DNA of 58,029 nucleotides from Halocafeteria seosinensis (GCA_001687465.1 LVLI01000437.1:1-58029), one strand, 5' to 3'. Positions 203 through 38,405 are shown, counted from the first letter of the stretch. Program-made: numbers and translations. Notes: generated by a model not told the origin, from the letters alone.

Positions 203-3200
203 CTAGTCTTCACCAGACTTCGGACCCTCATCGAGAAGCTTGCGCCTACTTTGTTTGTCTTTACGCGGGACGTAAGCTTGGGCTACTGGGGTTTGACCGA
301 ATTGGCGTTTCTTCTTCCCTAAAGCGTAGGCAGACGTAGGTCCCTTAGTAGACTCCACATTTTTGCTTTTCTTCAAAGCGTTCAGTTCCGAGCGAGCTTC
401 CTCGAGCTCTGCTTCTAGTTCTTTCACCCTTTCCGGACTCGTGTCTGGAGCATCCTCCTCTTCAGGGGTCTTTTCAGGTGCTGCCAGTGGGTTGTTTTCA
501 CTAACAAAGCCACTCTGGCGAGAGTAGAGTAGGCTGGCCTTGTCTGAGGACGACCCCACATGTACACCCTTCCCGGATGCTGATGTTTTGACTCTGTCTC
601 CGCCGCACGAACAGGCTGACACAGCTCGTAAAGCCGCATTCGGATAGAACGTCGAGAGCATTTCGAATCCGAACACAAACAAGAAGTATACACAGCTAAG
701 AATGACGGTTATCATTGCGAGCACACCCAGCGTCTCAAATTCTCCGCGATAGTATTGCATTGATTCCCCTTCGAAACGAGCCGACAAAAACATTATACCA
801 AACAAATTGACTAAGATGGCGCATGAGAGAAGGATTGCCTCGACTGTATTAAAGTTTGTCAGGTACCCTATGATTCGTTCCGACACCAGATATTGACCTC
901 TATTGTCTTTCATTTTCTCCCGCTGCGCTTCCCAGCCGTGACCTGCGGTGGTCTGCTTTATATTCTTCATCTTAGTGTAGTCGATGGTCTCTTGAATCCG
1001 TTTGTGTAGAGAATCGCCTTCCTTTAACCGCCGAATATGGTGCTGCACTACCTCGTGGAAGTCCTTGCTGGCCATGTACGGCTCATGCCGCACTTGGAGA
1101 ACAAATGAAACGAAAATCACCAACATCGTTACCGCCAATTGGTAAACAGGCGACGAACGGAACATCAGTGATGTAAGCGCTATCATGAATTTGCGAAGCA
1201 GAATAAGCAATATCCAGTACCACTTTCCAGGTTTGAAAAGGTGATAAAGCCGCTGGAACCTTCTGCGAAAAGAATAGTTAGGATTTGACAGTGGTGTGTG
1301 CCCATATCCGTGGGCTCGCAAAATTTGATCGTGCTTCACCCGTTCTTTGTTTTTCCTTAGGAGTACAATTGCGAAGGTCGGGAACGCTAAAACATAGATA
1401 AGCAACGTGATAACCGCAAGCGGAACCAACAGCTTCACATGAACAGGACTCTCCCAGCATATTATATCCGTTCTCCCGGACATGTAAAGGTTTCCATCCG
1501 GGGGATCCGTAGGGGCACAGTTAAAAATATCGAGGGTTCTTCTTGCCAGGAAAATGTATAATACGTACATTATAACAACTGCCGTAGCAATTATCGAATT
1601 GATATGTGTATGTCTAAGCCTCGAAGAATTCCGCAAAATGATCAGCTTGTACAGGTAGCGTGTAACATAAATAACAGCAAGGAGTCCGAATGCAAGCAAA
1701 GGAATAGCCATTGTTGCCATCCACTTTATCTCATATGTAGGCGGTGGGGACATCCAACACGAAGGGGCCGCGAGCTCCAAGTTCAGGTTAAAGAACGACA
1801 GTGCTTGTAAAGTCCTTTCCATCACCATTGGCCACTGCACACGAGTTCTTGAAAACAGAGCTAGTACCTGGAAATAGTCCACACCAATAGTAAATGCAGC
1901 CAGCCGAATACCTTTAGAGTTGACAATGTAACCACCAACAGACACCCCGATAACGCCCAAACCAAGCATGACGGCTAGAAGCCATGCATGGTCTGGACAG
2001 GACTGGCACAAACCTCCAATCCTGAAGTAACCATCAGCACAATCACTACACCTGAAACCAGTATACTCTTTCGCACATGTGTTATTTCCCGTACAAGCTC
2101 GGTTCGGTTCGCAAGGGAGGAACACTGGGCATTTTTCCCGACTCTGTCGTTTGGGGTGGCAGCGTTCCGAGGGCGTGGTGTCATTAGTGCGCCACCATTC
2201 CTCGTCTGAGTAAATCAAATCGATAAATCGTTCTCCTCCTGGACAGACTGCACCAGGTTCCTCTTCATCGCAAAATAGACACTCTTCCCCTTGTAATCCA
2301 TACCAGCCTTTCTTGCACTCAGCAATTACCAATTCAAGCCATTCAGGGAATGACTTCTCACGCCGAGCAACATGCAACTCTATACGTTTCGGTCCAACAG
2401 TGGTCTTTGGCATTTCGCAAGAAATGCTAGTATGGGGCTTCCTGATAAACGCATTCCTACATGTTTGGTTTCCAAGTTTCACCTCAAGTTCGGCGAAGTC
2501 ACCTGTTCCAAAATTAGCACCCCGAAATTCGATCGTTTCACCCATTGCATCAGGGCTATTCGGCATGATCCTGTTGATCCGAGGCGGATCGTATGAAAAG
2601 GTTGCTGATTCATTTGTTTCTGATACTCTTCCGCTAACAACTATTTGAGCCAGTAAATTTGCACCGATTCCCTCGGGAAGCATGAAGACACGACTCAAAT
2701 GCGGATTGTTACTAGTTGACGCTTCTCGAATTGCATCTTCATGACCCTCGATAATAAGTTCGATATCAGGACTCTTTTGTCCACCCGGTCCAAAATTGGT
2801 GCCGTTCAGTTGGATCGGAACTTCACCGCTTGTGGGAAAACAATCTGGATACTCGAAAATACACGACGTCTTGTTATTTCGAGTGGTGCAGCGTTCAAAC
2901 GGTGTGCAGTCCTTCGCGCTTGGTCCGTCGAGTCGATTGACAAAGTTCACCACAGGTGGGTCGAACGAAAATAGTACAGGTTGGCTGTAACCACCTGAAT
3001 CTTCCGACCAACCAGCTGGAGCGACTAGTACTTCCAGACTTTCGCCAAACCCTTCGGGAAGACGAAATACAATCTCGGAATGGCTGTAGCCTACAGGCTC
3101 ATACATTTCCCCATCAAACTGCACTTTCCCCTTCACTCCGAAGTTCTCACCGCGAAGTGTAAGGTTGACGGGGTATCCGAGGAAGGTTGTTCCATTAGTT

Positions 3201-6200
3201 GGACCGGTAAGTGGCGATAGAGAGTGTACAGTTGGCTCTTTATACCGAACAGCGTCTGTGCTAGTTTCCTGATCGTCAACAATAACCGTAATAGCCACTT
3301 CATCTCCTTGCCCTTCAGGCGGATTGCATTCAATGTACGTGTGGTTGGAACTGATGTTGGCACACTCACGCGGAGTGTCGAATGCAGACATATCGAACAA
3401 GACAGTGATATTAGGAGAGTAGTAAGGTCCATCGGCAAAGCCACCGCTTGGAGGACCAAAATTATTTCCGTAAATATAAAGCCGGTCTTCCTCGGAAGTG
3501 TCCGTCGGAAACACTTTGGGTGTGACTGTTTTGATACTAGGAGGCATGTACCGGTATGAAAAGAAGGAGGTATACTCTCCAATGGATACTTGTGCTTCTC
3601 GGACTGTCTCTTCAGATCCACCGGCGCCAGGGGGGATCTGAAAATCCAATCGCTCGTGATCATGGTACACAGGTTTCACCGTTCCCAGGACATCTGGGAA
3701 TCGTATTTCGGCGTCAACATCAAAGTCCGAAGTCCCAAAGTTGAAGCCTCTGAGGGTGACGATAGCGCCAGTAGTTGAAATCCTATCGTCTGCGTCAACT
3801 GCTGGTATGGGCACCTGTGGTACGGGCCTTTCTCGTTTTGGGTTAATCCAGTTATTGCACCCAGTATCTTTGAAAAGCAGTCTGCTAAACGAATCTGCCG
3901 TGCTTGATGAGTTAATTGCCACAAAGCAGGGTTCTGGACCACGGTAGTGAACAGTGACATCTGAACGCGGAACCTCTTTGCCTTGGACCGAAACTGAGAC
4001 GGGAAGCTCTTTCCCCATATGAGGAGGCGTAGAACAAGAAATGTTCCCAAACGAGGTCCCCGTTTGGTTATTGACAACAACACTAGTTACCTCTAAGTTG
4101 GTACATGGTTTACCGCCGATAGTCACCACAACCTGCTCGGGGTTAGTAATGTGAATCCCTCGGATTTCCTTTATATCAAACAGACGAAATTTCTCACCAC
4201 CTCTGGTTGCAAAATTGTTGAGCCGCACTCTATCGACTTGGGAAGGGATTTCAGGAAGCGGTTCTCTGAAGGAATGCTTACTTGTCCGAACGGGTTGGTC
4301 AAGGACTTGCACTTGGACTGTTTCTGTAGGGAACCCTCTTTGAGTCCTACTCAGACGATCTATATCCAATACTTTATGAATTTCGTCATGGAAATATTGG
4401 TCCGCTGGTACGTTGATTGGCTCTTCAAAATTATCAACGTAGAGACGTCCACAGCACGTCGCGTCATCGCAAGAGCTTCCCCCACACAAATTGCTTCCAA
4501 AAATAGTTAGTTTAACTTTGTCTCCTTCAACGATCGACGGAGATATCGCTTGAATAGTGGGAGGGGCATAATCAAATTTCATTGGCAGGGAATATGTGCT
4601 ACCCACCCTGAGGAAAACAGCACGGTTTGTACCAAAGCCAGAAGGCAGTGACACTCGAATCGTCTGATCAACGGTTGGAGACCCTCCTTGGTACTCGATT
4701 TCCTCCACACTAATATCCACAAATGAAACATCTTTGAGCCATTGCTGAAGAGCATCGGGAGGAAACCCCAATGCTTCCACGTTTTCAAGCCATGATGAAG
4801 GGTTCTCCTGCTGTTCGGTGAGAACTTTGGTGAGCACGTTGTCATCAATGTCAACCCTCCCTTCATCCTGTAGTCGCCGTAAATGACCGTGAGTATCCAT
4901 CATCAGTCTAATAGGAATGATTTCAACCAGGTTCGCGCCAAGATTCGTTCCGGTGATTGTCAACGTAGGCATCAACCGATCAGTTTTATCAAAACCTGTT
5001 GGACCGTGAGTCGGATTGATGCTTGATATCACTGGAGGAGCGTACGAGGTGCGAGCAACACTAAAATCACTTTTCTGCCCTGCAATAACCACAATCCACG
5101 TATGCTGTTGCCCATGACCCGGAGGAGTCGCGCAGCGAATCCGTTCGTGAGAAATAACACTGCAGCCAATTCCTTCATATGTAGTCCCCCCGGGTCCATA
5201 TGTAACAGATTCGAGAAATCGATCTGATGACCCCTGGGGGCCAAAATTCTCACCGACAATGTCGATCAACTCTCCACCCAGTGTACGCAATCGTTGCGGA
5301 TCAGACCCACTAACCCCTTCAAAATGATCGATGATTGGCTCCTCGTACGACGTCGTGGAGATCTCCGAGCTTTGCCCACCAATTCGAACTGTCCAGAAAT
5401 GGCCGGCCCCCGCTCCTGGATCAGTGGTACACTCCATCTCATTGTGACCGCGGACTTTACATTCCCGGGCTTCGAAAGTGAAGTTACCTTCGCCATACGT
5501 GACTTCGTCGACCGATTGGCCCTCCGGTCCAAAGTAGCGACCACGTATAATGATAAGTTCACCACCAGGAGTCTCCAAATCTGTAACCCCGATTTCGCTG
5601 CTGTTCGCACGAGTGTACGTAGCTACGATTGGAGCATGGTAGTTACTGACACCTGTCAGCTGATTTGAGGTTTGGTTGCCCATGTTTCCGATCCACGAAT
5701 GATTTTTTCCAACCCCTTCAACAGTAATACACTCTATTCTAGTATGGGGATCGACAACCTGACAATCGGAGGCGGTATACTCAAGACTCTCGCCATAGTA
5801 GACCGATATTCCAACTTCATTTTGAGTGCCGACCCCGGGTCCGAAGTTCCTCCCATGTAAGAACACCAGCTCGTCACCCCTCGTGTTTAAATCGCGGGGA
5901 GGTCTCCCTACTACATCAAGTACACTTTCTACTACTGGCCTGTCGTATGATATGGCTTCACTCTTCGGGCTGCGGTCGGAGAGCTGTCCTGCAACTGTGA
6001 CTTGCAAGTCGAAGTGTTCACCAAAACCTTCAGGCAAACTGCACATCAATACTGTATGGTTCTCACGAGCACATTCGGGTATCCATTCTATCCATCCATT
6101 CTTTAGGATGGCAAATATTAAATCATTTGACGGTCCAAAATTAGTGCCTCGTACACGAAGAGCATTTGGCAAACCCGTTGTTGGGAGTACTTCCGACAGT

Positions 6201-9200
6201 ATTGCAACTGTCTCAACGCTGGGTATGGAATAACCGACATCCGCTGGCTTGGCCGTCTCTGACATCTGCTCCCACTCAGGGTCGAGATATGCAGTGACAA
6301 CTCTAAATTCCAAATTCGCCCCGCCACCTTCTGCAGTACGGCAATGAATCACCTCATCACCATCACCAACAACCTCACAATCCTGTGCACGTAGCACTCC
6401 CACCTGCGCATCACTTCTACTCCAATATTCGACCACAACAGGATTCGATATGAGTGCTCGGTCAATGGATGGAATTTGTACTGGTCCGAAGTTTTGGCCC
6501 CTCAGCCGGAATTCTTGGCCACCAGAAGTGTCAGCAGGTTCAGGCCAATCTTCGATGCTATTGACAGCTGGTGGTTGGAAATGAGTCGTAAAAGGAGCCA
6601 TGCGAGAATCTTGATCAACTTGTAAGGTCCACACGAGTCCTGTACCGACACCAGGGGGCACCGAACATTCTACCATGCTGTTATTCCATTGATTGTCCAG
6701 GCGAGTACGGATACACTGACTCTGCAACACCATATGCTCTCCGGGGGAAGTGATCGTGGCACTTATCGATGCAGCACGCCATACAGGACCAAGGTCACTT
6801 CCTAGGACTTTTACCTTTGAGCCACCCATCGTCGCATGTGGATTAAACCGTGCATTTCCGATACTCAGGTCATTGACATTATTCACCACCAATGTGACGT
6901 TCGCATCATCGTATAGGTTGCCAGCGTCGGTGAGACGGATAGTAAGCCGATGGAACCACGTTTCTTCATAATTGAGGTTCGATCCTTCAATCATTCGCAA
7001 TTCATTCGATACGAACCGGAACATCCCCGGCGAGTCCGTCCAAATGATTGACAGAGAGTAGCTGTCCTCAAGATACCTATCCGTAAAGGGGAAGTCCTCG
7101 AGACTTGCAATAACATCCTCACTCGTAATACTTTCGAGAGCATCTACTTCGTATTTTGACTGATTGAATTTCGGGGGCGTATTAACAAACTCCACTGCAA
7201 TATGAATGACAAGCTGATCCGTCAGGTCCTCTTGATCCTCCACTTTCAATGTGAGATCGTAGGAGGATTTTCGGAAATAGTTAAGTTCCTCTGAGATGGT
7301 TAAGTTGACCTTGCCAGTGTGGCCTTGGTCGACAAACACCGGATTTCCAAGAGCAAATGGCAAACCGTCATCCGTTTCGGCTTCGACAATGCTGAAGCTA
7401 AGTTCCTTCTGACTATCACGATCCTGGTCATAGGCTACTAGCTCTTCGACAGCAGACCCAACGTTAGCTGTTTCTTTAACATTCAACGATATCTGCTGGT
7501 TTCCCATCATAAACTGAGGTTGCTCCGGGACGTCCTCGACCATTATCTCAAGCTTACCGGTGTAGTTGGCCTGCTTGGCAAAAGCATCCATACAAATTAT
7601 TTCGAATTTTGCCACATGGTTATCATTTTGCACCAGTGCCTCGTAGTCGAGAAGGCGGGGATCGTCGACCGTCAACCGTCCGTTTTGACGATTAAAGCGG
7701 AAGACATCATCGTAAATATACGGCTCCACCGAAATCAGCTGATACTGGACACCTCGCCTATTCGGATCAGTGCAGAGAGGGTGGAAATCCTCGTACAAAC
7801 CTTCATAGTTTTCGGGAATTCTCGTGGTTAACATTTCGCTGTTTTTAAAAGCTGAAGGTTCCATCCAAACGGGTGGCATCGGGTCGTTAGTGACTTCGAT
7901 GAAATGCGTTCCATTGACACGATGGCCGTAACTGTCCATAGCTTGTACAACGAATGAATACCATGTGCCAATGTCCGAGTCCTGCAAATCCACAGGAGTT
8001 CCCGGAGAGATCAACAGTCGACCGCCATCGCGCAGCAAGAGCGAGAAAGGCGCAGCATCTCTGCTGAATAACTCCTTGGGTCCTTCGATCAGAGACACTT
8101 CCACCAAATCACCTATATCTTCAGTTCCTGCATCAACAGTTCCGAGAGTATCACCACCGGAAGAAAACACGTTCACCGTAAAATTCTGGTGGGGCGGGGT
8201 GAAGTATGGAGCTTCCGGTACGTCTAGGACAGTGATGTGCAGTGTGAAATCGGATGACATATTTTGAACAATATCATGAGCCGTAAACTCGAGCGGTAGC
8301 ACGGCTTGTTCGCTTTGGGAGTCATAGAGGCTTTCGTAATTGGGAACATAGCCAGAAGCAATAGACACGTTCCCTTGCTCACTCAAAATTACGTTGCTCT
8401 TTAAATTTCTTTGTTCAAAGCGGTACTGCGAAGGAGCGGTAGCGAATGGTTTCTCCGTACCGGAAAGCACATCTGGGTCAGTTAGACGAATACTCCCCAA
8501 GACGCCATCGTTCGCAGTGGTATGTTCCTTGACCTGGATGTTGTTTGCTGAAGCATCCAACGTTGGAGCTTCCGCAACATCGATAATATGCACGGTAAAG
8601 TTCTCTTCCCTAGTCCCCGATGGGCTTCCAGTATCTTCAACAGTAACGAGCAAATATACAGTTTGAATAGTTTCGTAGTCCAACGCCTGGTTGAGAGTGA
8701 GCAAGCCGCCGCTACTAAGAGAAAATTGGTCAGCAGCTTCACTAGCGTCAGCGTTCAAGTCAAAGAATCGTGAATTCCCTTCTCTGTCACAGAAGTAGGA
8801 GGAAAGATCAGTTATTGTAATTTGCTGGTGATTTTCCTCCACAGTAAGTTTACCATCAGGGGGAGTGAATCTAGGTTTTTCGTTTACCAACTCAATCGAC
8901 AATCTTATTTGCGCAGGCTTGGATACTGTTGGCCCAGGCATATTATCGCTTCTTTCTATAACTCTGGCAGTAACAGTGATATCAATCCACAGGTCATGCT
9001 CTGTGCAGTTGCCACATGGAGGGTCCGCACAGAGAATAGAATTGAAAGAGGCGGTAGATACGGTAAGTTCACCCTCAGAAGAGACAGCAATGCGATTTTC
9101 GTCCTCTCCCAAGTTGTTGGTTGCTTCTATCAAGTCATATTCGAACTTCGTTCCATGTCTATCTTCTGCTTCCAGGGTACCGATTACGTCCCCCCTGCCC

Positions 9201-11939: not shown

Positions 11940-13191
11940 TATCTCGCTGTATATCCTGCACATAGAACATACAAACAAAATGTACAACAAATGTGTCGTT
12001 ATGCACGGAACGACAGATCCAGGTAGCATGCGCACACACTTGTGAATAAACATCATAAGCTTTAAAGTATAATTCCACCCTCCAGCTGTCAGACGCAGTA
12101 CCACCAGCAGCATGCGTCTACATCCCAAACAAGGAATCGTATATGTGTACTATGCCTGCCAGAGGGTGCCCAGCATTCGGATGAATGGACGTTTACTACA
12201 TGCTACTCACGTTTCTTTGGTACGATGTTTTTCTAGTTTGTTTTCCTTTCCCCTCGTCCTGTTGGTTGTTCGGGTTCGCCAGTCAGCCAGCCTTCTTCGG
12301 GGCTCCTTTCTCGACTGTATTGCGTTGCAGACCACAAGACAGAAAAGGAGGGTTACAAACAGAGATAGACAGACTGACCCTTTTTCAAACCCACCCAGAT
12401 GGACATGAGTATATTAATTTTAAATGCTCGGCCCGAATTGCGACTTCTTGCGAGCGAGCTCCATGCCATGCCCTGTATAATATGGACACTGCACATAAGG
12501 TGTTCCAGCGCTAGAGCTATTCAGGACAAAGCACGGACGTATCATGGGGTGCACGCTGCCTCGTACGTACACCACACACATGTATGTACAAGTGGTGGTG
12601 GATGTCCAACCAAGGCCGCATCTTGGTACGTGTTGAAGCAGCAGGAGGGTTCCTGGTTCCGGAGGAATACCGGTCATGGCTCCCCTTCAATGTTTTGCGA
12701 CTACGTGTACACGCATGATATATTATGGTATGTTGTTTCGGCTAAACCAAGCAGTGACGTCAGGATCGTTTTCAGTCTCTGTCTGCCGAGAGCGAGAGAC
12801 CTTGTACTTATTGTTTCCCGTCCTCCTCCCCCAAAAGGTGCTTCAGGTGTTCGTGCTCGCAAGACCTCGTGAGGAAGCGAGAAAGGGAAAGGGAAAGGGA
12901 AAGGGAGACCTGGAATCTCTTTCCACCAATTCAACGTCGTCGAGACTCCCTGGTTCAACGTAAGTAGGCGAGGAATGAATGAATGAATGAATGTTACATT
13001 CATTCATTCATCTCGTGGGGTATGTGTGTAAATGAATGGTGGCTTCCAGGTGGCAGGAAGGCGGGAGGACGCCTCCATTTGTGTAGTGTCTTTGTTTTGC
13101 GTGCGTCTTGATTGATCGAGTGTCTCATATATAAATGTGCAGAACGCACACGACCATGAGGATGGGGCCACCATCGTCGTCATGTAGCCGA
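11940..13191. promoter_or_regulatory. Shared divergent (head-to-head) upstream region of paralogs A and B
   Basis: The two start codons point away from each other ~1.25 kb apart. The region has a (GAAAGG)n run at ~12881-12905, a (GAAT)n/(ATTC)n palindrome at 12979-13011 and TATATAAA at 13128-13135. Confidence 0.55.
12979..13011. repeat. Perfect 16-bp inverted repeat with 1-nt spacer, built from GAAT/ATTC microsatellite
   Basis: ATGAATGAATGAATGT-T-ACATTCATTCATTCAT read directly. Confidence 0.9.
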
Positions 13192-25200: not shown

Positions 25201-25239
25201 ATGGCCTCGTATAGTTCCTGTCTCCTGCAATATCCGCGG

Positions 25240-26425
25240 TAATATGAAAATTCCAAGCATCACTTTCGTTGCTCGATTCGTACCAGTAAGGTCTATTCGT
25301 CTTGGCTCGATTGCTGCTTGGCGACGTGTCATCAACTGTGGGGCCGGCCACTGCCCTCCCTCTTTCTCCCAGCACGAAATGCGTGATAATTCCCACCCTT
25401 CACATGACCATAATCAGTATATGAGAACTTTGTAGTATGACTGTAGATTGTGAGCCACTCATCATCACTGTGGAAACGGGTGACAGTCAATACATAAACC
25501 CGGATGTCCGGAGTGTTGGCTGCGCTAGTCCTGCTGCGCTGAACCTGCCCTGTTCTCAAACGTTTACGGAGTGATTTGGAAGCACCTTTGAAGCTCGGAA
25601 ATATGCTACACTTGAAGCTCAGAATTAGGCTGTACTGTAAGTTGGACAAGAGGAACTCTTTGGCACGATGGCTCCGATCATAGGGTGGTTTGAACAAATA
25701 CCGTACAACAGTACCACCAAAGAAAGAAGGGAGCCATTGTTTTGCCTTCGATGATTGTACAAGTACAGTACAGGTTACCACTGATTCATATCGATTCCAG
25801 CTGTAACAAATTTGATACATACAGTAGGAGTGTCAAAGTCTGGTGTGGAATATCTACCGCCCAGAAGAAGTTCCACCGGGATGAGGCCTCAAACAGTTTC
25901 TGCTTCCCTCACTAATATATAGAAAATCCATGCTTCAATTCGTTTGCTCGATTCCTACCGCCGGTAGCTTGTCTTGCCGCGATTCCGCTTCCGCAAGCGC
26001 TTGTTTCTTGGCGACACATTGCCGGGTTGTGGGAACAACTTCAATGACGGGATCCACAATTTTTTTCGCAGCAACTCAACCACCACTAAATGCATGATAT
26101 TGCCCATTCGTCAAATGGCCAGTGTCTGAGCAATGTATCGTGTGAGTGTGGGTTACAAGACACTCCTCGTAGTTGCGGAAACGGACGATAATATGATCAG
26201 AATGCCCCACAACGCCCCTGGCTCGTTTCTTGGCCTGCTGAACTTGCACCTCAGTCATTGATTAGGAGATTTGGGAGGTTCTTAATTGTGCTGTACTGTA
26301 AGTTGCAAAGGGGGATGCAAGAACGCGGTTGGGACGATAGCTTGAGTGATAGCGTGGTTTGAGAGATACAGTACAGCACACTGGGTCCACAAGGAGCTGA
26401 TCACCGGAGGTTTTGATATACCATA
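25240..26425. repeat. Degenerate tandem duplication (two ~0.5-0.6 kb units, offset ~660-710 bp) in the B-C spacer
   Basis: Colinear anchors: TTGCTCGATTC (25269/25944), AAATGCnTGATA (~25377/~26088), GCTGTACTGTAAGTTG (25629/26290), GTGGTTTGA (25685/26354). Minus-strand translations also align (TDYGHVKGGNYHAF vs SDTGHLTNGQYHAF). Confidence 0.75.
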
Positions 26426-26673: not shown

Positions 26674-29600
26674 ATGGAGAGGATCCCGTTCTCACTTATC
26701 CTCTTCTGTGTCCCACTGTGCATGGTGCACGCCTTTGGACCGCCCCACATACCAGAAGGATGCTCGGCGGAACTGAACATTAACGGACAATGCTGTTATT
26801 GCTACATTGGAACTGCCATGACGGAAGTCGTCAACAAAACGAATTATTGTTGTCCGTGTCAGGTACGTGGTATGAGTGTACTCCATTCCAGGTTTTAGTA
26901 GATGCACAGGAAGTTGCGTTTTCTATGCCCGTACAGGCCGGACAATACAATGACGATGCCTCATTTGCCAACTATTTTACCAGGGCAAACAGTTGTAAGA
27001 ATTGTGAACCAGGGAAGTTTCAAGAGAAGGAAGGACGAACGGATTGCAAGAACTGTAGTCCAGGGAGAGTTTCCGGTCCTGGAGCAACGAAATGTACGGA
27101 TTGTTCTGCTGGACGGTACCAAGATGAAATTCTTAAGCAGACTTGTAAAGCGTGTGAGCCAGGGAGAGCCGAAGGCTCGACAGGCTCCTCACAGTGTGAG
27201 GCGTGTCCCCAAGGGTTTTCTCCTTCCGATGATCGGAGCAGATGCGACCGGTGTCCTCATGGTAGATTCGGCTCAGCACCGGAGCAAGACGAGTGCGAAG
27301 TGTGTGACGTTGGTAAACATGCGGGACAAACAGGATCAACACACTGCGATATTTGCAATCCTGGTCGATATCAGCCTCAACAGGGGCAAAGATGGTGCAG
27401 GTGGTGCCCTGCAGGGTATTTTCAAAGTCAACACCAGCAGACCGAGTGTATTCAAGCTTCCAAAGGCTTTTATGCCCCCCGTGGTGCACGTTCGGAGACG
27501 GAATGTCCTAAAGGGCGTTATTCGTCTGTGAAAGGATCCACAAGTTGGAGGTGTGAAGGACTTGTGAATGCTGGACGATATTCCCAAGTGACTGCTGCTG
27601 TGAGCGCCGTCGGAGAATTTCCGTGCCCTACAGGACGTTATGGACGCCCTGGTGAAGTCCATGACGATTGCACTGGCATGTGTCCTCAAGGATATTTCTG
27701 TCCTGAAGGAACTGGGATACACGCCTGGGAAGACTGTGGCCCCAAGGAGAAATATTGCCCGTATGGAACTCTTACGCGTCGCGATGTTTCCGAAGGACAT
27801 TATGCTCACGGTACTCCCCCAAATCAAGTCGGACAAAGTATCTGCCCGTTTGGATCCTATTGTCAGGACACTGAGCGATTTCCTTGCCCCAAAGGAAGAT
27901 ATGGCGATGAGCGAGGTCTGACGGATCCATTGTGTGTTGGGTATTGTCAGGGAGGTTACTTTTGCCCGGAAGGTAGTCGATCTGTCCGGGAAGAAGTGTG
28001 CTCTAACAGAGACCCACTGTTCTACTGCACCGAAGGACAGCGGTACACGTGTGATGAGGGATACACAACCCCTGTTGGCCACAGTGCCTCAACACGAAGT
28101 GCATGCCTACCTTGCCCCCAAAAGTTCCGGTGTCTCGGAGGGGTGCGTCTGGCCAAAATCATATGGCAGGACAGCATGTGCCGTCACAACCGTGCGAGGG
28201 ATACGATGTATGTGCCGACTGTGGAGAAGGAAGATTCTCCGGCTGATATAGGGGAAATATTTAAAGCTGAGGTCCGAGTGCCTTACGACAGTTTGGAATA
28301 CTCGATTGCTTCTATCAAGGAAAACGGACGGAACCTTGAGGGTGGACGGTGTGAAGATGACGTGACGAATGATTCTCCTATAGAAATGAGAACGTTTGTG
28401 GATTCCGGTCGGCTGTTCAATGGAAACATTCAACAACAAAATGGACAGATGAGGGTCAAAGCTGGCTCTGAGCTCAGGTTTGCGGACTGTGGGAGATACG
28501 ACGTGAAGGTTTCGCTAAGCGTTATTGAAACTGGAGTTGTTGAGACAGGAAACATAAGTGCTTTGGTTGTTGAGTCTTGCTGGTTTCAGTTGGTCGTTGA
28601 ACATGTAAACTCCCCTCCTGAGAAGAAACCAGAGTTTGGGTTCCTGAATGAGACGGTATTCCTCGAAGTAGATCGTGGTGAAGCCTTTGATGCGGCCATC
28701 GGGAAGCCTTTAGTGCGAATGTTCACTGACCCAGATCGTCAGGAACTTACATTTACCTTCACTGAAAAAGACAATGATGGAAATAGTGTTACCGTGACCC
28801 CTCATCCGTTTTCCATGGGTGCGTGTACAGGACAGGTTAAGGTGAATGATCCACTGTTACTGCTAGAAACAGTACACGATTATTTCGAAGTGTATGTACT
28901 GGTCAGTGACAATGCACCCGACGAACCAGGAGAGATTGTGCAGGTGGTAGGGATCAACGTGATTCAGCCGAATCGTCTACCTACGATCCAGGAGAATGCC
29001 CCAGTGCTCTATATTGTGGAAAGATCTCCACCAGGGACAATGGTTACAACAGAGCAGGATAGGTTGGGCGTAAACATCACCACTCTTCTGCATTCGTCGT
29101 TTGTTATTGATCTTGATGGAGACGAAATGACGGTTGAGCTCGAGCCTTGCTCTCGCGAAAACTACTGCAACGCATTTCGACTGACGCCGGACGGCAATTT
29201 GACTGTGCGAGATCCCCATTACATATCTTTCAAAGAACCCGTGGACTTAGCCCGCTTTGTACGGGTCAAATATTCGGACGGCTCGGGCGGGGAAGACGCC
29301 AAGGTTCACACTTTACTCGAGTTAAAGATTCAGGAATTACGAAATGCTCCAGTTGTGACGTCCGATGAATTCGCCGTTCGCGAAGATGCAACGGGTAATA
29401 TTGCACATGCCCAAATTGAGGCTTTCGATGCCTTCGGCATGTCGTTTCGGTTTACACTGGTAAGTTCAGTGAATAACCATGGCGAAACTGATGAGCGGAT
29501 TGAGATAACCGCGGATGGTAGTGTTAAGGTATCGGATGAGGCTTCGTTCGATTCAGTGCTGTGTCAAGGCGCTAACTGCTTAAACTGTACGGCCCATGAT

Positions 29601-32600
29601 GTATGGATTGATATCTCTGTGACTGCTGAAGTGGAAGATAGAACGGATACGATGCCGGGTCCAATTGTTTCAGCACCGACAACTATCAGATTAAACATTA
29701 TTTTGGTTAACGAGAAACCGAGGTTTCTTCCACCCACCGACTCGATTACTTTGTTTGAAAATGTTGAACAGACCGAGGTAACTGACATATCTTCTCTATT
29801 TTGTGATAGAGAAGGTAATAATGTGTTCTTCGAAATTGTAAGGGATCTGGATGGAGTTGGGCAAGGGTTTTCCTTGTCAACTGCTGGGATCCTGAAAGTT
29901 GAAAGTGCGTTCAATTACGAGGAGATTCAATCTGGAAACATTACTGTCCGAGTGCAGGATACGGGGTCCCCTTCAATGGAATCCGTGGCTATGGTTCCTT
30001 TTTACGTGATGGACGTTGCTGAGCCTCCTATTCTCGACCTTAGCTTACCAACAAACCAAATAGAGATCACTGAGTTAACGACGAGTGATGCTGGAATGCT
30101 GGGACAGATCCAGGTGACTGATGTTGACATTTATTCTGGCTCATCGTTGCGTTTTGCTTCTGAAACGTCTAGCTTTGAGTACCAGCAAACCTCACTGTTT
30201 GGAAAATTGGTGCTGACTTCACAAGGAGAAGTGTCCGTAGCGGCTGGATATGTCCCTGACTTTGAAGGCTTGTATAGGGAGCAAGATGGTTCTACTGTAC
30301 TACCGCTTGAATTTTCGGTCATTGATGTGGTCAACAATATATCGACTGACCTTTCTGTTGGAGTCAAGGTGTTGGATATCCCTGAAGCCCCGTACTTCAG
30401 CCCTCCGACCCAGAATTTCACCGTCACTATATTTTCTGAAGAAGGCGACATTTTCGGTACCATTGAAAGCGCAACTGACGATTTTGGGGACAACATTGAC
30501 ATATCCCTGTTAGATAAACCTAGAGATCTTGCGACACATGCTTATTTTGACTTTATCACTGTGAGGGAAAATGGGCGTTTGTTAATTACTCCTGAAAGTG
30601 GCCTCAATTTTACCAAAAATGACGTTGGTAGGTGGTTTGCGTTTGGTGCAACGGCTACCGATAGTCATGGCTTAACTGCAAATGGTACACATTATATCCA
30701 AGTAATAAACCCTCCGGCGGAACCATTCTGGGTGTCGCCGGAACCCTTCAAGTTAGGAGGATCGTTTGAACTGGACGTCGATGAGCATCATCAAGGAACT
30801 CTTCGATCAAATGGGATAGAATTTCGCTTGAATTGTGACGATCCGAACGATCTGGGAGTTCAATACCAAGTGTTTGCCGTTTCTCCAGGATTATTCGATG
30901 ACATTGTTGATTTGGACCGGAAAAAAGGGGTTTTGAGAGTTGAGGAGTCGTCCCTGTTGGACTTCGAAACCCTTAGTGAGAAGGGACAACTGGAGGCTAA
31001 TTTCGAAATAATTTGTGTCGATTCCTATGCTCAAAAGGCTGAACAGAGCGGTACGCTAGTATTGACTGTCCGAGATATCCCTGAACCTCCTTCCTTTATC
31101 GAGCCTTCAACTACAGTCCGAGTATCCGTAGAGGAGGACAAACCCAAAGGATATGTGCTCCATGAAATACATGTGTTCGATGAAGACGATTTAAGTCGTG
31201 GGAGGCTATCGTTTACTATTACGTCGAATGACGGAAGTACCGACGTTCCGATATCACACACTCCAATTATATTCGACGGCCACCATGCCTACGTGAACTT
31301 GACGTTGGACGCTGCTTTGGATTTTCTCGATAAGTCTTCCTACATGCTCACTGTGCAAGTGCAAGATGAAGCAAACAACGATGATACGCTTACTGTGGAA
31401 ATTGAAGTTCTATTTGTTAATACTCCTCCGGCTTTTGACTCTCCCCTTTACACCGTCTCTGCTGCTGAAGATGCGACAAGTGAGACTGTGCTCGCTGTCG
31501 ATGATGACTTCTCTTTCCAAGACAGGAGCCAACAACCATCGTATCGCTTTACTGTGACCTGGAGTGATCCTCCTGGTCTATTTGAATTTATCAACAATGA
31601 GCTACGGTTATCGAAGGATATGAGCATGAACTACGAAGCAAAATTGATGCATGAATTGGGAATCCGTGTGGAGGACGACGAGGGTTCGTTTGATGATGCT
31701 AACGTCACAGTCAACGTCACAAATGTGAACGATTTTGTGATAGGACGCGCTGCTTCTCCCCCTCACATGACTAGTGGTGGATCCTTAACTACTATCTATG
31801 GAGAAGATCTGGGCCCTGTTTGGCGTGCTGCCAAAATTGGCGTGGTGATTTCCTCGCCCGGAAGTCACATGATCCTTAGAAGCACTTGTTCTAGGCAAGC
31901 AAACGAGGGTGGGTGGAACAATACCATGATTGAGTGCCATGTTCCTCCGGGAGTAGGTGGTGGACTTGTTTGGGAAGTGACCATTGATGATGATTCCCAG
32001 ATGGCACCTTTTACGACATCTTTCGAATCGCCTGTTGTGGACGGAATTGAAGATTGGCCGAAGTTCGCAGCTACAACGGGAGGTGACAGATTTGTGGTGA
32101 AGGGAAGCAATTTTGGCCCTGCAAAACTTGACGCGGGAGATGGGAGAAAAATTCCAAACCCTGTGGCCGTTCGGTACCAGAGTAACGCAGACCCACGGGT
32201 TGGGATATTGGAAGCTTTGAGTTGTATTGTTGTGGATGACTATGTGCGTGTAGAATGTTTCACCGTTGAAGGGGCAGGGTCTGAATTACAATTTATAGTG
32301 TCTGTCGCCACGTTAGAGGCAACATGGAAGAAGACCTCGAACTGGTTTGCCCCGATTCAAACGAGTTATGCCCCTCCCTCCGTGTTTGATGTAGTGCCAC
32401 TTACTAACAGTCGTCCCACCACTGGTGCTGAAGATGCGGTAGGTTTGACTGGTGATAATTTTGGACCTCGTCTAGACTTAATTGTCGTTAGAATTCTAAA
32501 CAACTGGGTACATTGGGATACTTCGTGCCAGCGGAAGAACCACACATACCTCCTATGTGACTTTCCGGAGGGCGTTGGAGCTTATTTTGTTTGGGAGGTT

Positions 32601-35600
32601 ACGGTTGCCGATCAAGTGTCCGACAATAGTCCCCTTGATGACGCTCTCTCATACGATTCGCCAATCCTAAATAGTGTTTTGGATGTGGTCGGTCGAGTCC
32701 CAAGTGATATGGACACGGAGGGTAACGAAATTATCTATCTGCACGGTTCAAATTTTGGCCCTGGTGTGGGACCCGATGGCAATATACCGATTTCCACCCT
32801 CTACGGAGACGAACTTCAATACACTGCCGACAGCTGTGTCGTAGAGGAACCACATGTCCGCGTACGGTGCCTGACTATCCCTGGGGTGGGGAAGAATCAC
32901 TCGTGGTCGACTACAATCGGATTCCAGAGCTCAAATACTCTCGCAGGTGTGAGCAATTACCACCCGCCTATTGTAGCAACATACAGAAGACCGAACCGCA
33001 GCAGTATTGGTGTAGACGATCTTGCCACACAAGGATATGAAATCGTTACCTTGAATGGAAGATACTTCGGACCTCCGGGGACATCAGTAGACTTTGCAAC
33101 GTACGGTGAAGGCAACCTCACGTTTACAGCTATCAGCTGCGAAGTGTTATCGCACACGCGGGTTGACTGCCAGACCGCTCCTGGTGCTGGTATGAAACAC
33201 TTCTGGACCGTGCAGGTCGGAGGCCAACGCTCAGAAGTTGCTACAACCTCCTACGGGGAGCCTAAAGTTATTGGCTTTAACGGCGTCGCTGGGTCTGACC
33301 CCAAAAATCTCCGAACAGTCGGGGGAGAATTGGTGGATATCCTGGGGGAAAATTTTGGTCCTCCCGCGATGTCGGCCGTGTTCCTGGAAGCGGTTACTTA
33401 CGGACCCAATGGAAACGATTATGCAGCGCGGGGATGTTCCGTCGTGTCCCATGTTCAAATTCAATGCGAAACTGCTGAAGCGTACGGTCAGCGCCACCAA
33501 TGGATTGTAGTCATTGCCGGGCAGCGCAGTGAGCTCAGCAACGCAACCACTTCGTATGCTGCCCCGGTGCTTGAACGCGTTGCTCCTCGACATGGTCCGA
33601 CTGGGTTTGATAAAGAAAGGTTCGACATGCCTACCATTCTGATAAACGGCACAGATCTAGGAACCAACTTGGTTCAAGACATTCCGATTACGTTGTTCAT
33701 GGATACACATGGTGAAATTGAACGACTTGGAAAGGCAGAGTTGCTGGAGGAAGTCTTCGCTCTGCAACAAACTGATCCTCTTTGGCTAGACAGAATAGGG
33801 GATATTGGATTCCCACGTTCTGTGTTTCAGCAATGGTTGAGCGACATACTTAAGGTCGATGTTGATGGGAAAAACTTGCACTACATCGAGGGGGTACCTC
33901 TTTATCGCCAACAATTATCCTTGAAGCTTCCGCGTGGATTCGGTGTCAATAGACCGCTATTCCTAAAAGTAGGAGAAACATACTCTTTGCCAATGTGGTT
34001 TGATTACGACCCTCCTTATATTGAAGCTGTATCTCCTTCTATTGAAGGCGGTAACAAAGTTTCTCTCACTATTTTTGGGCGTAACTTTTGTGGGGGGGAG
34101 TCATGTGGAGACGAAACATGTTGTGGAAAACTCTATGTACAAGACGAGCTCATGGAAGTTCCAACGCATCAATATTTTCATGACGAAATTCAAATCACGG
34201 TTGACAGCGGGAAACTGAAGACAACTGGAGGTGGTACTCCGGAGGGATCGGTGCGTGTTGTTGTTTTGGATCAACCTGTTGAAAGCAATACCAAAGAATT
34301 CAAGGAACCGTTACCGGATATTCCGTTTCAGCAAGGCCGCGTACGGCTTTCCGGGTTTTCGACTGAGGGTGGTGAAGTTTTCGAGCTGTATGATATTCAG
34401 CAAATCAACTCAAACCATGCAACCCACCCAGACAAAATAATAGTTAAAATTGAAAACAAGCCGTGTACATCGCTACGTGTAACGGGAGTGATCGAAGAGG
34501 ACCTAGTCCCGCGTGGGAACATAAGTTGCATCACACCTGAGCATATGGGAGAAGACCTGCTTGTGTCTCTTTCCATTGACGATATTCCAGTTCCTCGTCC
34601 CGATGTATTCGTGGACTACGCTGAGCCCACAATTTGCTATGTATCTCACGTCGATAGTATTGAGGACGATAGTATCGGGACCACACTCGATAAATTTCCT
34701 GACTACTGTGACACCTTTGATGACGATATCCCTGATGAGGCCACGATAGGTGGGGTGCCAACTATGGGGGGCTTTGTCACTGTGCATGGCAACAACTTTG
34801 GATCGTCCTCGTTGACTCAACTGAATCCTATTGTCACCATGGCGGAGCTACAGGCCGACGCTCAGATTTTACTTCATGAGCATCGACGCTTAGATCTACT
34901 GATACCCCCTGGAGCTGGCGGGCACGGGAACTCGGCCCCCGAAGCAGACTTTATTGTGAGCGGGTATTCTTCGTCCTTTCGAATTCACTACCGAGCACCG
35001 ACGATCTTCTCAATCTCTCCATCTATGATTTCGACAAATCCTGCACCAATGGATCGTGTATTCATACACGGGATGGACTTCGGACCGCCCACCGGCTCTC
35101 TCATGGAAGTTGGACAACAGTACGTACCCTCCGTTTCCGTAAGGCTTGTTGGGCAGCTTATGGATAAGGAATGTGACGTTGTTGCTTCCAATCACACGTT
35201 TATCGAATGCATTCCTCCGGTAGGACAAGGTGGGGAAATCACTGTGACTGTCAATGTCGAGGGGCAAGAAGACTCTTCCTCAATAGACTACCACAGCCCG
35301 ATGATAGAAGATATAACTCCGAAACTCGGTCCCACAAGTGGTGTGTCTGACGGTACTCCAGTTCTTATGAATATTTCCGGGACAAATTTCGGCTTGACGG
35401 GACAAGTTAAGTTCGAAGTGACTAATCGAGGGTTCGTGTTGGAGGCAAAGGTTATCGCATACGGTCACAATCTGGTAATTGTAGAAATTCCTGAAGGCTA
35501 TGGGGATGCTGTATCGGTTTGGGTAGTCCAAGCAGGTTGGCCGGACGTTCGTGGGAGCAGCAATGTAAAACCCTTTGCCTACCTGGCACCCATTATCGAA

Positions 35601-38405
35601 GATATGCATCCTCTAGACAGCGGAGGTAACCGACAAACTTGTACCTCTTTTAAGAGGTGCAACACGTTCAATGGTAAAGAGTCATGTGTGATTGAGTACT
35701 CAGATTGCTTTCCGACTTCGGGTGATATAAGTGTTGAAATCGTAGGCAACCATTTTGGTCCTGGAACGAACTGGGTCAAAGGTGTCCCTCCCATTGTTGA
35801 GGTAGCCATTGAGGGCCGCGGGGGCACGGAACAAGTATCTGACGACACCAATAACCCACACACGCAACGCGTTTTTACGCTCCCCGAGGGTATTGGAGTT
35901 GACCTTTTGACCCAAATCGTTGTAGCTGGACGGAGATCCCCTGCGGTGGATTCCCATTTACTATCTTATGACTCACCTAGGATCACGAGCATCATGCCTA
36001 ATAACCCAGATGCAACCGGAGAGCGTATCGAGTTTCGAGGGGCTAATTTTGGACCCTCTGGTACTGAAATTGCGGTCAAATTAGGCAATGTTACTTGCCT
36101 GGATTCTTTCATTAAGACCCCGCATAGTGTTATTACTTGCGAACTCCAAGCCGGGGTTGTCGGTCCTAAACGAATTGATATGGAGATTGGGGAGCGACTT
36201 AAATCATTTCCCGAGTGGTTGGAGTTAGTAGTTACTGAATGTAAGAGAGGATGGTATGGTCTGCAAGGTGAAACCTGTCTGTTTTGTGAGGAAGAAGAAC
36301 CTGGTGCTGTGTGTCCTGGTGGGGAGAGGTATGATGACTTGACGTACTCCGAGGAGTCCTGGTGGAAAAGCGAGGATACTCCACCTTCTGATCGTTGCCA
36401 CCCGGAAAGACAGGAACGCGAAAAGTGTCCGGTGCTGTTGCCATGTGAGCCCAACTTTGCTTGCACAGGCAATAACACATGCCATAAGTCCTATTCTGGC
36501 ACTCGCTGCAGTGATTGCGCTGATGATTACTTCCGAATAGCAGGGCTATGCCAATCTTGTCCTGATCATGCCTGGCTATTGGGTGTCATGGTCGGTTTAG
36601 GTGTCATCGGGGTAGCTGTAGGAGGATATGTCATCAACTCCAAGGGGATCAGATTGGCGTCGTTTACTATTGGTGTTGATTACTTCCAAGTGTTGGCGTT
36701 ATTTGCCAGAACCCGCGTCCGTTGGCCTGATGTTATGCAGAAGACACTTCAAGCGTTATCCTTCTTCAATTTGAATTTGGAGCTTGCTGCCCCTTCTTGT
36801 TGGATGTCGCCCCCACCATCGTTTGAAACTAAGTGGGTGGCCACAATGATGGTTCCTCTGCTTGCTTTCACTCTGTTGGCTATTCTGTATGTGGTACACT
36901 ACCTGTACAAGCTGATTGTTTTGAAGAGACCAGCTCACTTGCGACATACCCATATTAACGCAATCATTGCAACAGCAGTTGTGATTATGTACGTGTTGTA
37001 CATTTTCTTGACTCGGATGACATTGGACATCTTCAATTGCGCACCGACGAATCCGCCAGATGGCAACCTGTACATGGCTGGAATGACCGATATTGTTTGC
37101 GGTAAAAGTCCTGTGCATGTGAATTTGTTACTACCGATTGCCTCCATTTGCCTCGTGGTTTATGTGGGTGCATTCCCCATAGGATCTTATGTCTTGCTTC
37201 GAAGGAACAAAGAGCGGGTGAAACATGACCAAATTCTCCGGGCCCACGGGTATGGCTATACCCGACGGGAAAATCCCAACTACGTGTTCCGTCGTCGATA
37301 CCAAAGGCTTTATCACTTGTTCAAACCTGGCAAATGGTATTGGGTACTTGTAATTTTGCTACGAAAGTTTATGATTGCTTTTACCTCTCTGATGTTCCGG
37401 GCCTCGCCTATCTACCAACTGGCTATGACTCTTCTCGTCATCTTTGCCTCGTATGTATTTCAGGTCAGACACCAGCCTTACATGAGCAGTGGTGATTTCG
37501 CAGATGTAGTCCGAGATCATGAGAAAAAGGTGCAAATGGGAGATAAGCTTCACATGCGGATCCAAAGTACGATCGACGATACCAAAGCTCGGAATATTAA
37601 GCAATCTAAGACGACTCATGGTTGGGAAAATCAAACGACGAAGATGCAACAAAAGCGCGGTAACTACTTGGTTTCTGAGAAAATAATTCAGTATTTGACG
37701 GATTTTAACACAGTGGAAGCAATTTTGTTGTCATCAGCCATATTGGTGAATCTCTTTGGTATCATGTTTCTTTCGTCCCGATTTGACGGAGAATCTATGG
37801 AATATTACCGAGGTGACTTCGAGACCCTCGGGATACTTTGTATGCTCATTGTTTCCCTGAGCTGCGCATATTTCGTGTTCGTCTTTACGTTTGAAATGCT
37901 TTCTACGTTTTATCCCGACACGGCATTGAGGTTGGCGTCTTCGTGCTCGTGTGGAGGACGGACGGTTACCGCAACAGCTTCTGACAAGGGGGCGAGGGTA
38001 AGAAAGGGCGCTCGCCCGTCCTTGAGCGGGAGACGTAGAAGCGCTGTCGTCACCCAAACCAATCCTTTGTCTGCTGCAGCAGCTGAGAAGAAAGCGGCTG
38101 GTGCCGAAGAACTTACAGACGCTGACATGATTAAACAGCTACAGAGTCAGCTCCAACAGGCTCGAGATGAAATTATTGAGCTGAAAAAGAGTCAAGACCA
38201 AGTATCCGTAAAGAATGCTTATGGTACAACGTACTCGAAGAGCAAGACAAAACGAGAATTCGGTCAATTTAGGAAACACACGAGCGGCAAAAGCCCTTCC
38301 AAGGCTACTCCTGGAATAAAAAGGCGAGTGAGTCGCCAAGTAGCGGTACCCCCCGGCGAAGGACTGCTTCCTCAGGATAGTGCAGAAGACGCAAGTCCTC
38401 AGTGA
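26674..38405 (+). CDS. Giant multi-pass surface receptor, paralog C (~3885 aa), same architecture as A and B
   Basis: Exon 1 is 26674-26862 (MERIPFSLILFCVPLCMVHA...YCCPCQ). Intron 26863-26936 (GTACGT...TACAG). Exon 2 is 26937-38405 (AGQYNDD...), in frame with the 3871-aa ORF. Motif-by-motif colinear with A and B. Confidence 0.9.
26863..26936 (+). other. Spliceosomal intron (74 nt, phase 0) of paralog C
   Basis: CAG|GTACGT donor and GTACAG|GCC acceptor. Removal bridges a frame change between the signal-peptide ORF and the long ORF. Confidence 0.9.

What the first reader, a model, noticed from the sequence alone, without database searches (positions are those of the whole stretch)
203..38405. 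Cluster of three giant cadherin + IPT/TIG + multi-TM receptors in a protist-like genome
Seen: three ~3,885-aa paralogs with the same order of modules. These are signal peptide, CxxCxxG Cys-rich repeats, ~9-10 repeats with cadherin hallmarks (LDYE, DxD, DVxExPxF), ~14 GxNFGP-type IPT/TIG repeats, a Cys-rich stalk, ~9 hydrophobic helices and a coiled-coil tail. Established: cadherin repeats are Ca2+-rigidified adhesion modules, best known in animals and choanoflagellates and sporadic in other protists. IPT/TIG arrays occur in plexins, fibrocystin and Dictyostelium Tgr recognition proteins. Inference: a clustered family of very long contact or mechano-sensing receptors (adhesion, prey, mate or self recognition), architecturally analogous to Flamingo/CELSR or polycystin-1 but assembled independently. 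I do not recognise this full combination as a characterised family.
Basis: partly seen in the sequence, partly recalled or inferred. Interest (0 to 1): 0.85.

Follow-up and report, generated by a model that had tools for sequence, protein, structure and literature searches.

The report
Nine-helix cadherin receptors of stramenopiles
Three neighbouring genes of a single-celled eukaryote each encode a 3,900-residue surface protein with cadherin and Ig-like repeats on a predicted nine-helix membrane anchor; they are most likely members of the already named but unstudied 'nonagonal cadherins', and their anchor appears related to parasite secretion triggers and a yeast stretch-activated calcium channel, so they likely sense contact.

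Summary
There are three intact paralogs (3,883, 3,886 and 3,885 aa; 52-55% identical; one shared intron). Each has a signal peptide, Cys-rich repeats, 9 cadherin repeats, 13 TIG repeats, an EGF-like stalk, 9 predicted membrane helices and a short tail. Cadherin identity holds by Pfam, PDB sequence and fold. Spliced contigs support genes A and B.

The architecture is not new: 53 of 62 relatives carry cadherin + TIG (Cafeteria, Bolidomonas, Aureococcus and others), and a stramenopile family of nine-pass 'nonagonal cadherins' was named in 2016. That paper was not held, so membership is likely (about 0.8) but not proven. I found no functional study.

What I add: the stalk + 9-helix core matched no solved fold. 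It shares exactly spaced motifs with Toxoplasma/Plasmodium CRMP cores (exocytosis triggers) and weakly but consistently matches PF06011, the fungal Pkd2/Flc family; fission-yeast Pkd2 passes Ca2+ on membrane stretch. I did not find that link in print.

Best reading: tethered contact or force sensors coupled to Ca2+ signalling (0.4). The scan noted this scaffold before, with another head, in another genome.

The parts
203..11939 (-). Gene A coding region: exon 1 11939-11736, intron 11735-11651, exon 2 11650-203; 3,883 aa
   Evidence: intron skipped by a contig of X2
11955..12209 (-). 5'-UTR intron of gene A (255 nt)
   Evidence: joint 11954/12210 in X2, GT..AG on the minus strand
10421..11858 (-). 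Gene A: Cys-rich Ephrin_rec_like (GCC2/GCC3-type) repeats after the signal peptide, residues about 28-478 (spans the intron)
   Evidence: Pfam PF07699 E 3e-11; phmmer match to Chlamydomonas Mst1 Cys repeats, 8tx1, E 3.6e-18
9965..10417 (-). Gene A: extra beta-sandwich of unassigned type, residues about 480-630
   Evidence: strand pattern in the AlphaFold2 model; outside the range aligned to cadherins
6869..9934 (-). Gene A: nine cadherin repeats, residues 641-1662
2315..6868 (-). Gene A: 13 (possibly 14) IPT/TIG repeats, residues 1663-3180
   Evidence: PF01833 E 9e-48; count
1988..2314 (-). Gene A: Cys-rich EGF-like stalk (DUF7630), residues 3181-3289
   Evidence: PF24633 E 8e-7; cysteine spacing identical to three CRMP cores
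647..1987 (-). Gene A: nine predicted membrane helices, residues 3290-3736, N-terminus outside and C-terminus inside
   Evidence: AlphaFold2 pLDDT 91.8; hydropathy and loop charge; PF06011 below cut-off
206..646 (-). Gene A: cytosolic tail with a short coiled-coil-like stretch near residues 3808-3835
13192..24924 (+). Gene B coding region: exon 1 13192-13383, intron 13384-13455, exon 2 13456-24924; 3,886 aa. Cadherins about 15169-18234, TIG about 18235-22803, membrane core about 23125-24465
   Evidence: intron skipped in X2
26674..38405 (+). Gene C coding region: exon 1 26674-26862, predicted intron 26863-26936, exon 2 26937-38405; 3,885 aa. Cadherins about 28626-31733, TIG about 31734-36248, membrane core about 36570-37910
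   Evidence: a 4,352-nt contig of X3 covers 34284-38635; intron not seen skipped
12210..13191 (.). Region between the head-to-head genes A and B (holds A's first non-coding exon; a shared promoter is inferred, not shown)

Best explanation
The three genes are old, intact paralogs that most likely belong to the stramenopile nonagonal cadherins, and each likely works as a long surface tether whose binding or pulling is passed to a nine-helix membrane core that would admit calcium or trigger a calcium-dependent response. Shown: the modules and their order, the cadherin fold, splicing of A and B, and strong conservation of the stalk and core while silent sites are saturated. Predicted: nine helices, N-terminus outside. 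Inferred from motif and profile similarity: the stalk + core is homologous to the CRMP core of alveolates and, more distantly, to the fungal Pkd2/Flc domain (PF06011). Inferred by analogy only: the Cys-rich and cadherin part binds a substrate, prey or partner cell about 100 nm or more from the membrane (domain sizes recalled); the roughly 13 TIG repeats act as a spacer of near-fixed length; the core opens or signals, leading to attachment, engulfment, secretion or a change in flagellar beat. No ligand, ion flux or location has been shown.
For: Family: 53 of 62 relatives found with the core carry both cadherin and TIG, including Cafeteria, Bolidomonas and Aureococcus; add Triparma, Chrysophaeum and five more Aureococcus proteins. 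Aureococcus P0059 has Ephrin_rec_like, cadherin and TIG in the same order before the core, and a review names Aureococcus among cadherin-bearing species in a sentence that cites the nonagonal paper with two others. In 138 of 148 long core-bearing proteins the order is cadherin < TIG < core; TIG number has median 13 while cadherin number runs from 1 to 36. Selection: A and B are 94% identical over stalk residues 3221-3320 with only 13 of 44 four-fold sites shared. CRMP link: CRMPs are defined by two EGF-like domains plus nine helices. The stalk cysteine spacing and the loop/helix-6 L-x3-F/Y-x4-WYW-x6-RK motif occur in TgCRMPa, PbCRMP1 and PbCRMP2 (read by eye) and in the window proteins (both in A and B; the second also in C). 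They match 32 and 49 of 201 family cores and 0 of 40,200 shuffles each. CRMPs are needed for triggered exocytosis in Toxoplasma and Tetrahymena. Pkd2/Flc link: PF06011 matches A, B, C and 18 of 47 relatives at E<=0.01, 17 of them ending at profile positions 340-344. The only viral-library fold match at E<=0.001 is a Megaviridae protein named 'TRP ion channel' (E 1.2e-4, TM 0.40/0.54). Fission-yeast Pkd2 has nine predicted helices and a short coiled coil in its tail and passes Ca2+ when the membrane is stretched (abstract). Charged or polar residues inside the helices are nearly invariant: D and Q in helix 2, R and K in helix 6, N and E in helix 8.
Against: The nonagonal paper was not held and no oomycete protein appeared among the named hits of three searches, so membership rests on the name, on citing papers and on Aureococcus as a proxy. 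All PF06011 scores are below the curated cut-off (best 26.3 bits against 28.5). The CRMP motifs were chosen while looking at both sequence sets. Two further motifs fit fewer CRMPs (one fits TgCRMPa only, one TgCRMPa and PbCRMP2), and TgCRMPb fits neither main motif exactly. No profile or structure comparison with a CRMP or with Pkd2 was run. The passages read report no channel activity for CRMPs, and no signalling partner was found for them. A shared fold does not show shared function. Only about 2-3 of 8 cadherin linkers keep a full Ca2+ motif set, so the array may be too floppy to pass force. Oomycetes, which do not feed by engulfment, also have the family, so prey capture cannot be its general role.
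Confidence: 0.4

Rival explanations
1. They are adhesion or attachment proteins; the nine-helix core is a stable anchor and trafficking or dimerisation unit without channel or signalling output.
For: Cadherin and IPT transcripts rise with other adhesion genes in starved Cafeteria (passages; the genes are not identified as this family). CRMPs may act partly as escorts for partner proteins. The ectodomain makes up about 85% of the protein.
Against: The core is the most conserved part (75-94% between paralogs over much of it against about 40-60% outside) and keeps invariant charged residues inside the membrane. Some relatives carry cytosolic WW domains (3 of 47). A passive anchor needs neither.
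Confidence: 0.27
2. They are CRMP-like receptors that trigger exocytosis or engulfment through protein contacts of a core dimer, without passing ions.
For: The motif match is closest to CRMPs. CRMPa and CRMPb form a complex and are predicted to pair through their helices. A and B lie head-to-head and both are spliced in one run.
Against: No partner proteins were identified here. The tails are about 150 aa against 478-565 aa in Toxoplasma CRMPs. The cores of A, B and C are about 76-79% identical, unlike the divergent CRMPa/b pair.
Confidence: 0.18
3. The cluster is a self/non-self or mating recognition locus like the head-to-head Dictyostelium tgrB1/tgrC1 pair (recalled).
For: TIG arrays; head-to-head A and B; one relative has a weak Ig_TgrO1 hit below cut-off.
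Against: The duplicates are old, collinear and show no gene conversion or hypervariable block. Tgr proteins are single-pass (recalled). Allelic differences seen in the laid contigs were not tested for selection.
Confidence: 0.08
4. They are adhesion-GPCR-like receptors comparable to Flamingo/CELSR, signalling through G proteins.
For: Cadherin ectodomain on a multi-pass core; CRMPa has been annotated GPCR-like; the best VIA matches of the cadherin part are CELSR1 repeats, though tied with other cadherins.
Against: Nine predicted helices, not seven; no GPS-like motif near the membrane.
Confidence: 0.07

Closest known systems
Nonagonal cadherins (Fletcher, van West, Gachon 2016, Gene 593:64; PMID 27498181). 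Not held; seen only through citing passages in PMC8164589, PMC7409359 and PMC11603286; further detail is recalled
   Same: Stramenopile cadherins with nine membrane passes (the meaning of the name is recalled). Aureococcus proteins with the same core and module order are homologs. The short subclass with one cadherin block of 3-12 repeats, few exons and paralogous copies (recalled) fits these genes.
   Different: I could not check whether the paper describes TIG or Cys-rich repeats, or any bicosoecid-like member. The oomycete subfamily is tri-modular. Aureococcus P0059 has a laminin-G domain that these lack. A three-gene cluster was not mentioned in what I could read.
CRMPs (cysteine repeat modular proteins) of Toxoplasma, Plasmodium and Tetrahymena (PMC9815656, PMC9670195)
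   Same: Signal peptide, ephrin-receptor-like Cys repeats, EGF-like stalk, nine helices, cytosolic tail; two exactly spaced core motifs shared.
   Different: CRMPs carry Kringle or MAR domains, not cadherin or long TIG arrays in the passages read; longer tails; they work with thrombospondin-domain partners; heterodimer of two divergent clades. None of this was shown here.
Fungal Pkd2/Flc 'TRP-like' proteins (Pfam PF06011), e.g. fission-yeast Pkd2 (PMC9727806; bioRxiv 2022.08.11.503631)
   Same: Nine predicted helices behind an extracellular Ig-like part, short coiled coil in the tail; consistent sub-threshold profile match and one fold match to a viral protein named TRP channel.
   Different: Pkd2 has a single 147-aa Ig-like domain outside, no EGF stalk and no repeats; similarity is remote; channel activity is shown only for Pkd2.
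Flamingo/CELSR and polycystin-1
   Same: Very long repeat ectodomain on a multi-pass core; cadherin fold shared with CELSR1 repeats.
   Different: No GPS-like motif near the membrane; nine helices, not 7 or 11. Analogy only.

Membership tests
Nonagonal cadherins | Extracellular cadherin (EC) repeats | tested here: met
Nonagonal cadherins | Nine membrane passes (meaning of the name recalled) | tested here: met
   Predicted: AlphaFold2 pLDDT 91.8; nine helices with family-mean hydropathy 1.7-2.8 and mostly positive-inside loops, the 4-residue loop 6-7 being an exception
Nonagonal cadherins | Stramenopile host | tested here: inconclusive
   All species-named relatives with cadherin + TIG + core are stramenopiles, Cafeteria nearest among them; no housekeeping gene of the window was placed on a tree
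Nonagonal cadherins | Homology of the core to the curated sequences of the 2016 paper | not testable with these tools
   Paper not held; six Aureococcus proteins are homologs and serve as a proxy; no named oomycete hit was retrieved
Nonagonal cadherins | Short subclass: one uninterrupted block of 3-12 EC repeats, few exons, paralogous copies (recalled) | tested here: met
   One block of 9 repeats, two coding exons, three paralogs; the criterion itself is from recall
True cadherins | Ca2+-binding linker motifs (LDRE, DxND, DxD) as named in PMC2926784 | tested here: inconclusive
   LDRE-like motif in repeats 4, 5, 7, 9; full-looking linkers at 4-5 and 7-8, partial at 5-6, degenerate elsewhere
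CRMP family | Conserved core of EGF-like domains plus nine helices | tested here: met
   Architecture; two exactly spaced motifs shared with 3 of the 4 CRMP cores whose printed part I read. Motif-level only
CRMP family | Statistical sequence or structure homology to CRMP cores | not testable with these tools
   No named CRMP came back from the protein searches and no library of predicted cellular structures was on hand
CRMP family | Heterodimer through the membrane helices; role in triggered exocytosis | not tested
Fungal Pkd2/Flc (PF06011) | Pfam match above the curated cut-off | tested here: not met
   17-20 bits in A, B, C against 28.5; best relative 26.3 bits
Fungal Pkd2/Flc (PF06011) | Shared nine-helix fold | tested here: inconclusive
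   Fold match to a viral protein named TRP channel, E 1.2e-4, TM 0.40/0.54, rmsd 8.2; no direct comparison with Pkd2
Fungal Pkd2/Flc (PF06011) | Stretch-activated Ca2+ permeability | not testable with these tools
   Shown for Pkd2 only (abstract)
Adhesion GPCRs (CELSR) / polycystin-1 | GAIN/GPS domain next to the membrane | tested here: not met
   No Pfam GPS/GAIN hit; no GPS-like motif near the membrane; an EGF-like stalk sits there instead
Adhesion GPCRs (CELSR) / polycystin-1 | 7-helix GPCR or polycystin membrane fold | tested here: inconclusive
   Nine helices predicted; absence from fold-search lists does not exclude a family

The most novel reading that the evidence does not exclude
Nonagonal cadherins, CRMPs and fungal Pkd2/Flc are branches of one ancient eukaryote-wide superfamily of nine-helix receptor-channels with swappable heads. 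The stramenopile branch joins a cadherin tether, a TIG spacer of near-fixed length and a stretch-gated Ca2+ unit in one chain: a single-protein counterpart of the tip-link-plus-channel arrangement of animal hair cells, used by bacterivorous flagellates to feel contact.
Probability: 0.25. Interest if true: 0.8.

Novelty: new member of a known kind. Interest (0 to 1): 0.45.

Why it matters
The genes themselves are likely new members of a named family with no functional study that I could find. The value lies in the link between three separate literatures. If the nine-helix core is shared with CRMPs and yeast Pkd2, the unknown signalling step of CRMP-triggered secretion and the unknown job of stramenopile cadherins become one testable question: does this core pass calcium when its ectodomain is loaded? 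The family is also common in free-living flagellates such as Cafeteria, which does not fit an origin tied to host attachment and offers harmless organisms for the test.

Tried and rejected
Artefact or pseudogene: rejected (intact frames, shared intron, spliced contigs, purifying selection).

Recent duplication or gene conversion behind the very similar cores: rejected (four-fold sites near chance level throughout; no exact shared run of 30 nt).

Core dimer (A with B): the complex predictor was not available; the question stays open.

Oomycete nonagonal cadherins or named CRMPs as search hits: none among the named rows. These searches are limited by length window and shared words. Ten long hits looked up by cluster gave no such name.

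Clustering in relatives: a metagenome scan found no confirmed locus (56 pattern matches, 0 confirmed), and two alignments were too variable to scan with.

Expression ranking or co-expression: not possible; all four runs are contigs from one study, none on record as RNA, and they may be the window's own source.

No whole genome is held, so further paralogs could not be counted.

The tree is the quick tree, not the finished search, on 23 hand-picked rows. The tree used the 201 of 223 core matches that covered most of the profile.

A bacterial promoter scan of the A-B region was uninformative.

No paper tied the accession prefix GECG01 to an organism.

The CRMP-Pkd2-nonagonal link: none of the 13 papers listed (of 14 that held two of the five terms) contains 'cysteine repeat modular'; searches showed no such link in their listings. 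Subscription journals, including the 2016 paper and its supplements, are outside the library.
Full report
1. Observation. Each is completed by a short first exon and one GT..AG intron at the same position, giving 3,883 (A, minus strand), 3,886 (B) and 3,885 aa (C), each with a hydrophobic N-terminus and 52-55% pairwise identity. A and B are head-to-head; C follows B in tandem. Contigs of public run X2 skip the A intron, an A 5'-UTR intron and the B intron (the B joint has only 20 letters on one side). Runs X3 and X4 skip introns of a neighbouring ribosomal protein gene, and X1 shows no joints, so I read X2-X4 as RNA-like and X1 as DNA-like; none is on record as either, and all are one study. 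C is covered by a 4,352-nt X3 contig, but its intron was not seen skipped and three contigs start inside it.

3. Age and selection. Four-fold sites are at about chance identity along the whole length, even where A and B are 94% identical in protein (13 of 44 sites), and no exact 30-nt run is shared. The copies are old and under purifying selection, strongest on stalk and core. In a quick tree of 23 chosen rows, B pairs with EukProt protein P0001 (100), A joins them (99) and C joins next (95); Cafeteria proteins are the nearest species-named group. P0001's source prefix GECG01 is, from recall only, the Halocafeteria seosinensis transcriptome; two paper searches did not confirm this. The host is therefore likely a bicosoecid-like stramenopile, which I did not test with a housekeeping gene.

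4. The family. With the core as query, 53 of 62 long relatives carry cadherin and TIG, and 9 of 62 also Ephrin_rec_like. Named members come from Cafeteria, Bolidomonas, Aureococcus, Triparma and Chrysophaeum. 4,501 cluster representatives match the core at E<=0.001, and cores without cadherins occur in Thecamonas and elsewhere. Among 148 core-bearing proteins of 2,500 aa or more (the three window proteins and a few near-duplicates included), 138 have cadherin < TIG < core; TIG number has median 13 while cadherin number ranges from 1 to 36. The constant unit is TIG spacer + EGF-like stalk + nine helices, with a variable outer part.

5. It has a name. [quoted passage not shown] A Phytophthora study calls one weakly expressed zoospore gene a tri-modular nonagonal cadherin (PMC7409359, passages). 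The paper itself is not held; that the name means nine passes, and that a short subclass has 3-12 repeats in paralogous copies, is recall. Aureococcus P0059 has the same module order plus laminin-G. I put membership at about 0.8. No oomycete protein was retrieved, so the direct test is open. Four searches showed no functional study in their listings.

6. What the core is. No solved structure matches. Two leads agree. First, CRMPs: their conserved core is two EGF-like domains plus nine helices (PMC9815656, passages, discussion part 1 of 2, supplements 5 and 10), and they are needed for triggered exocytosis in Toxoplasma and Tetrahymena (PMC9670195, passages). Reading the printed cores by eye, the stalk spacing C-x5-C-x5-C-x8-C-x2-C-x2-G-Y/F and the motif L-x3-F/Y-x4-WYW-x6-RK occur, in the same order, in TgCRMPa, PbCRMP1 and PbCRMP2 but not exactly in TgCRMPb. 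A and B have both, C the second. They match 32 and 49 of 201 family cores and none of 40,200 shuffles. Two more patterns fit fewer CRMPs. The patterns were chosen with both sets in view, so this is motif-level evidence. Second, fungal Pkd2/Flc: PF06011 matches 18 of 47 relatives at E<=0.01, nearly always ending at the same profile position and never above cut-off; the nearest Atlas clusters include ones where 11-13% of members carry it; and the one significant viral fold match is a Megaviridae protein named TRP channel. Fission-yeast Pkd2 has nine predicted helices (bioRxiv 2022.08.11.503631, passages) and passes Ca2+ on stretch in vesicles (PMC9727806, abstract). I did not find these links in print (listings), within a library that lacks subscription journals.

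7. How it most likely works. The outer Cys-rich and cadherin part likely binds a surface, prey or cell; the TIG run holds it away from the membrane; load or binding reaches the core through the conserved stalk; the core would admit Ca2+ or trigger a Ca2+-dependent step (0.4). Rivals: passive adhesion anchor (0.27), CRMP-like non-conducting trigger (0.18), self-recognition locus (0.08), adhesion GPCR (0.07). Against the best reading: sub-threshold Pkd2 similarity, no channel activity reported for CRMPs in what I read, partly degenerate Ca2+ linkers, and presence of the family in non-phagotrophic oomycetes. Cadherin and IPT transcripts rise in starved Cafeteria (PMC7852580, passages), but those genes are not tied to this family. 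Other papers seen as passages only: PMC2926784 (oomycete cadherins), PMC11603286, PMC4987115, PMC10846610.

8. Earlier notes of this scan. No note holds 'nonagonal' and none resembles the core by sequence. One note describes the same scaffold with a WD40 head in another genome, and one a TIG array on an 11-helix core; neither was checked here.

9. Verdict. Real, intact and, for A and B, spliced; likely new members of a named, unstudied family rather than a new kind. Interest 0.45, carried by the probable CRMP and Pkd2 relationship, which makes the function directly testable.

Noticed in passing
window 44828-44951: A roughly 125-bp element with very high summed contig depth (45,060 in its bin of X1 against about 70-250 elsewhere) and many loose ends in all four runs; no Rfam match at gathering score anywhere in the window. 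Likely a high-copy interspersed repeat.
   Followed up: partly
window 55215-58029: Inverted repeats (219 bp at 99.5%: 55546-55764 / 57811-58029; 128 bp at 89%) flank a 653-aa ORF (55708-57669, +) with Gly-rich repeats and a Ser/Thr-rich tail and no Pfam hit. Could be a mobile element or a contig-end artefact.
   Followed up: no
window 50308-52467 (-): 719-aa ORF with weak C-terminal PARP and DUF3990 hits below cut-off; possibly an ADP-ribosyltransferase-fold protein.
   Followed up: no
window 24880-25576: A 145-bp direct repeat (88%) at the 3' end of gene B, and an X3 contig with a 59-nt joint that reads as an intron on the minus strand: a convergent transcript may overlap B's 3' end.
   Followed up: no
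window 38520-43833: Housekeeping neighbours: NOL9/GRC3-like kinase 40879-43833 (-); a ribosomal protein L31-like gene near 40064-40567 (+) with two spliced introns (name recalled from the translation); FKBP-like fragments near 38520-38777 (-) (recalled, untested).
   Followed up: partly
BFVD A0A5J6VHI1, A0A5J6VI06, A0A5J6VLW6: Three giant-virus (Megaviridae) proteins are the top fold matches of the nine-helix core; only the first is significant.
   Followed up: no
P0103, P0157, P0163: 3 of 47 relatives carry WW domains behind the core, a hint of cytosolic signalling partners in some family members.
   Followed up: no
window 9965-10417 (-) and equivalents in B and C: A confidently predicted beta-sandwich between the Cys-rich and cadherin regions has no Pfam hit and was not aligned to cadherins; it was not folded or searched alone.
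   Followed up: partly
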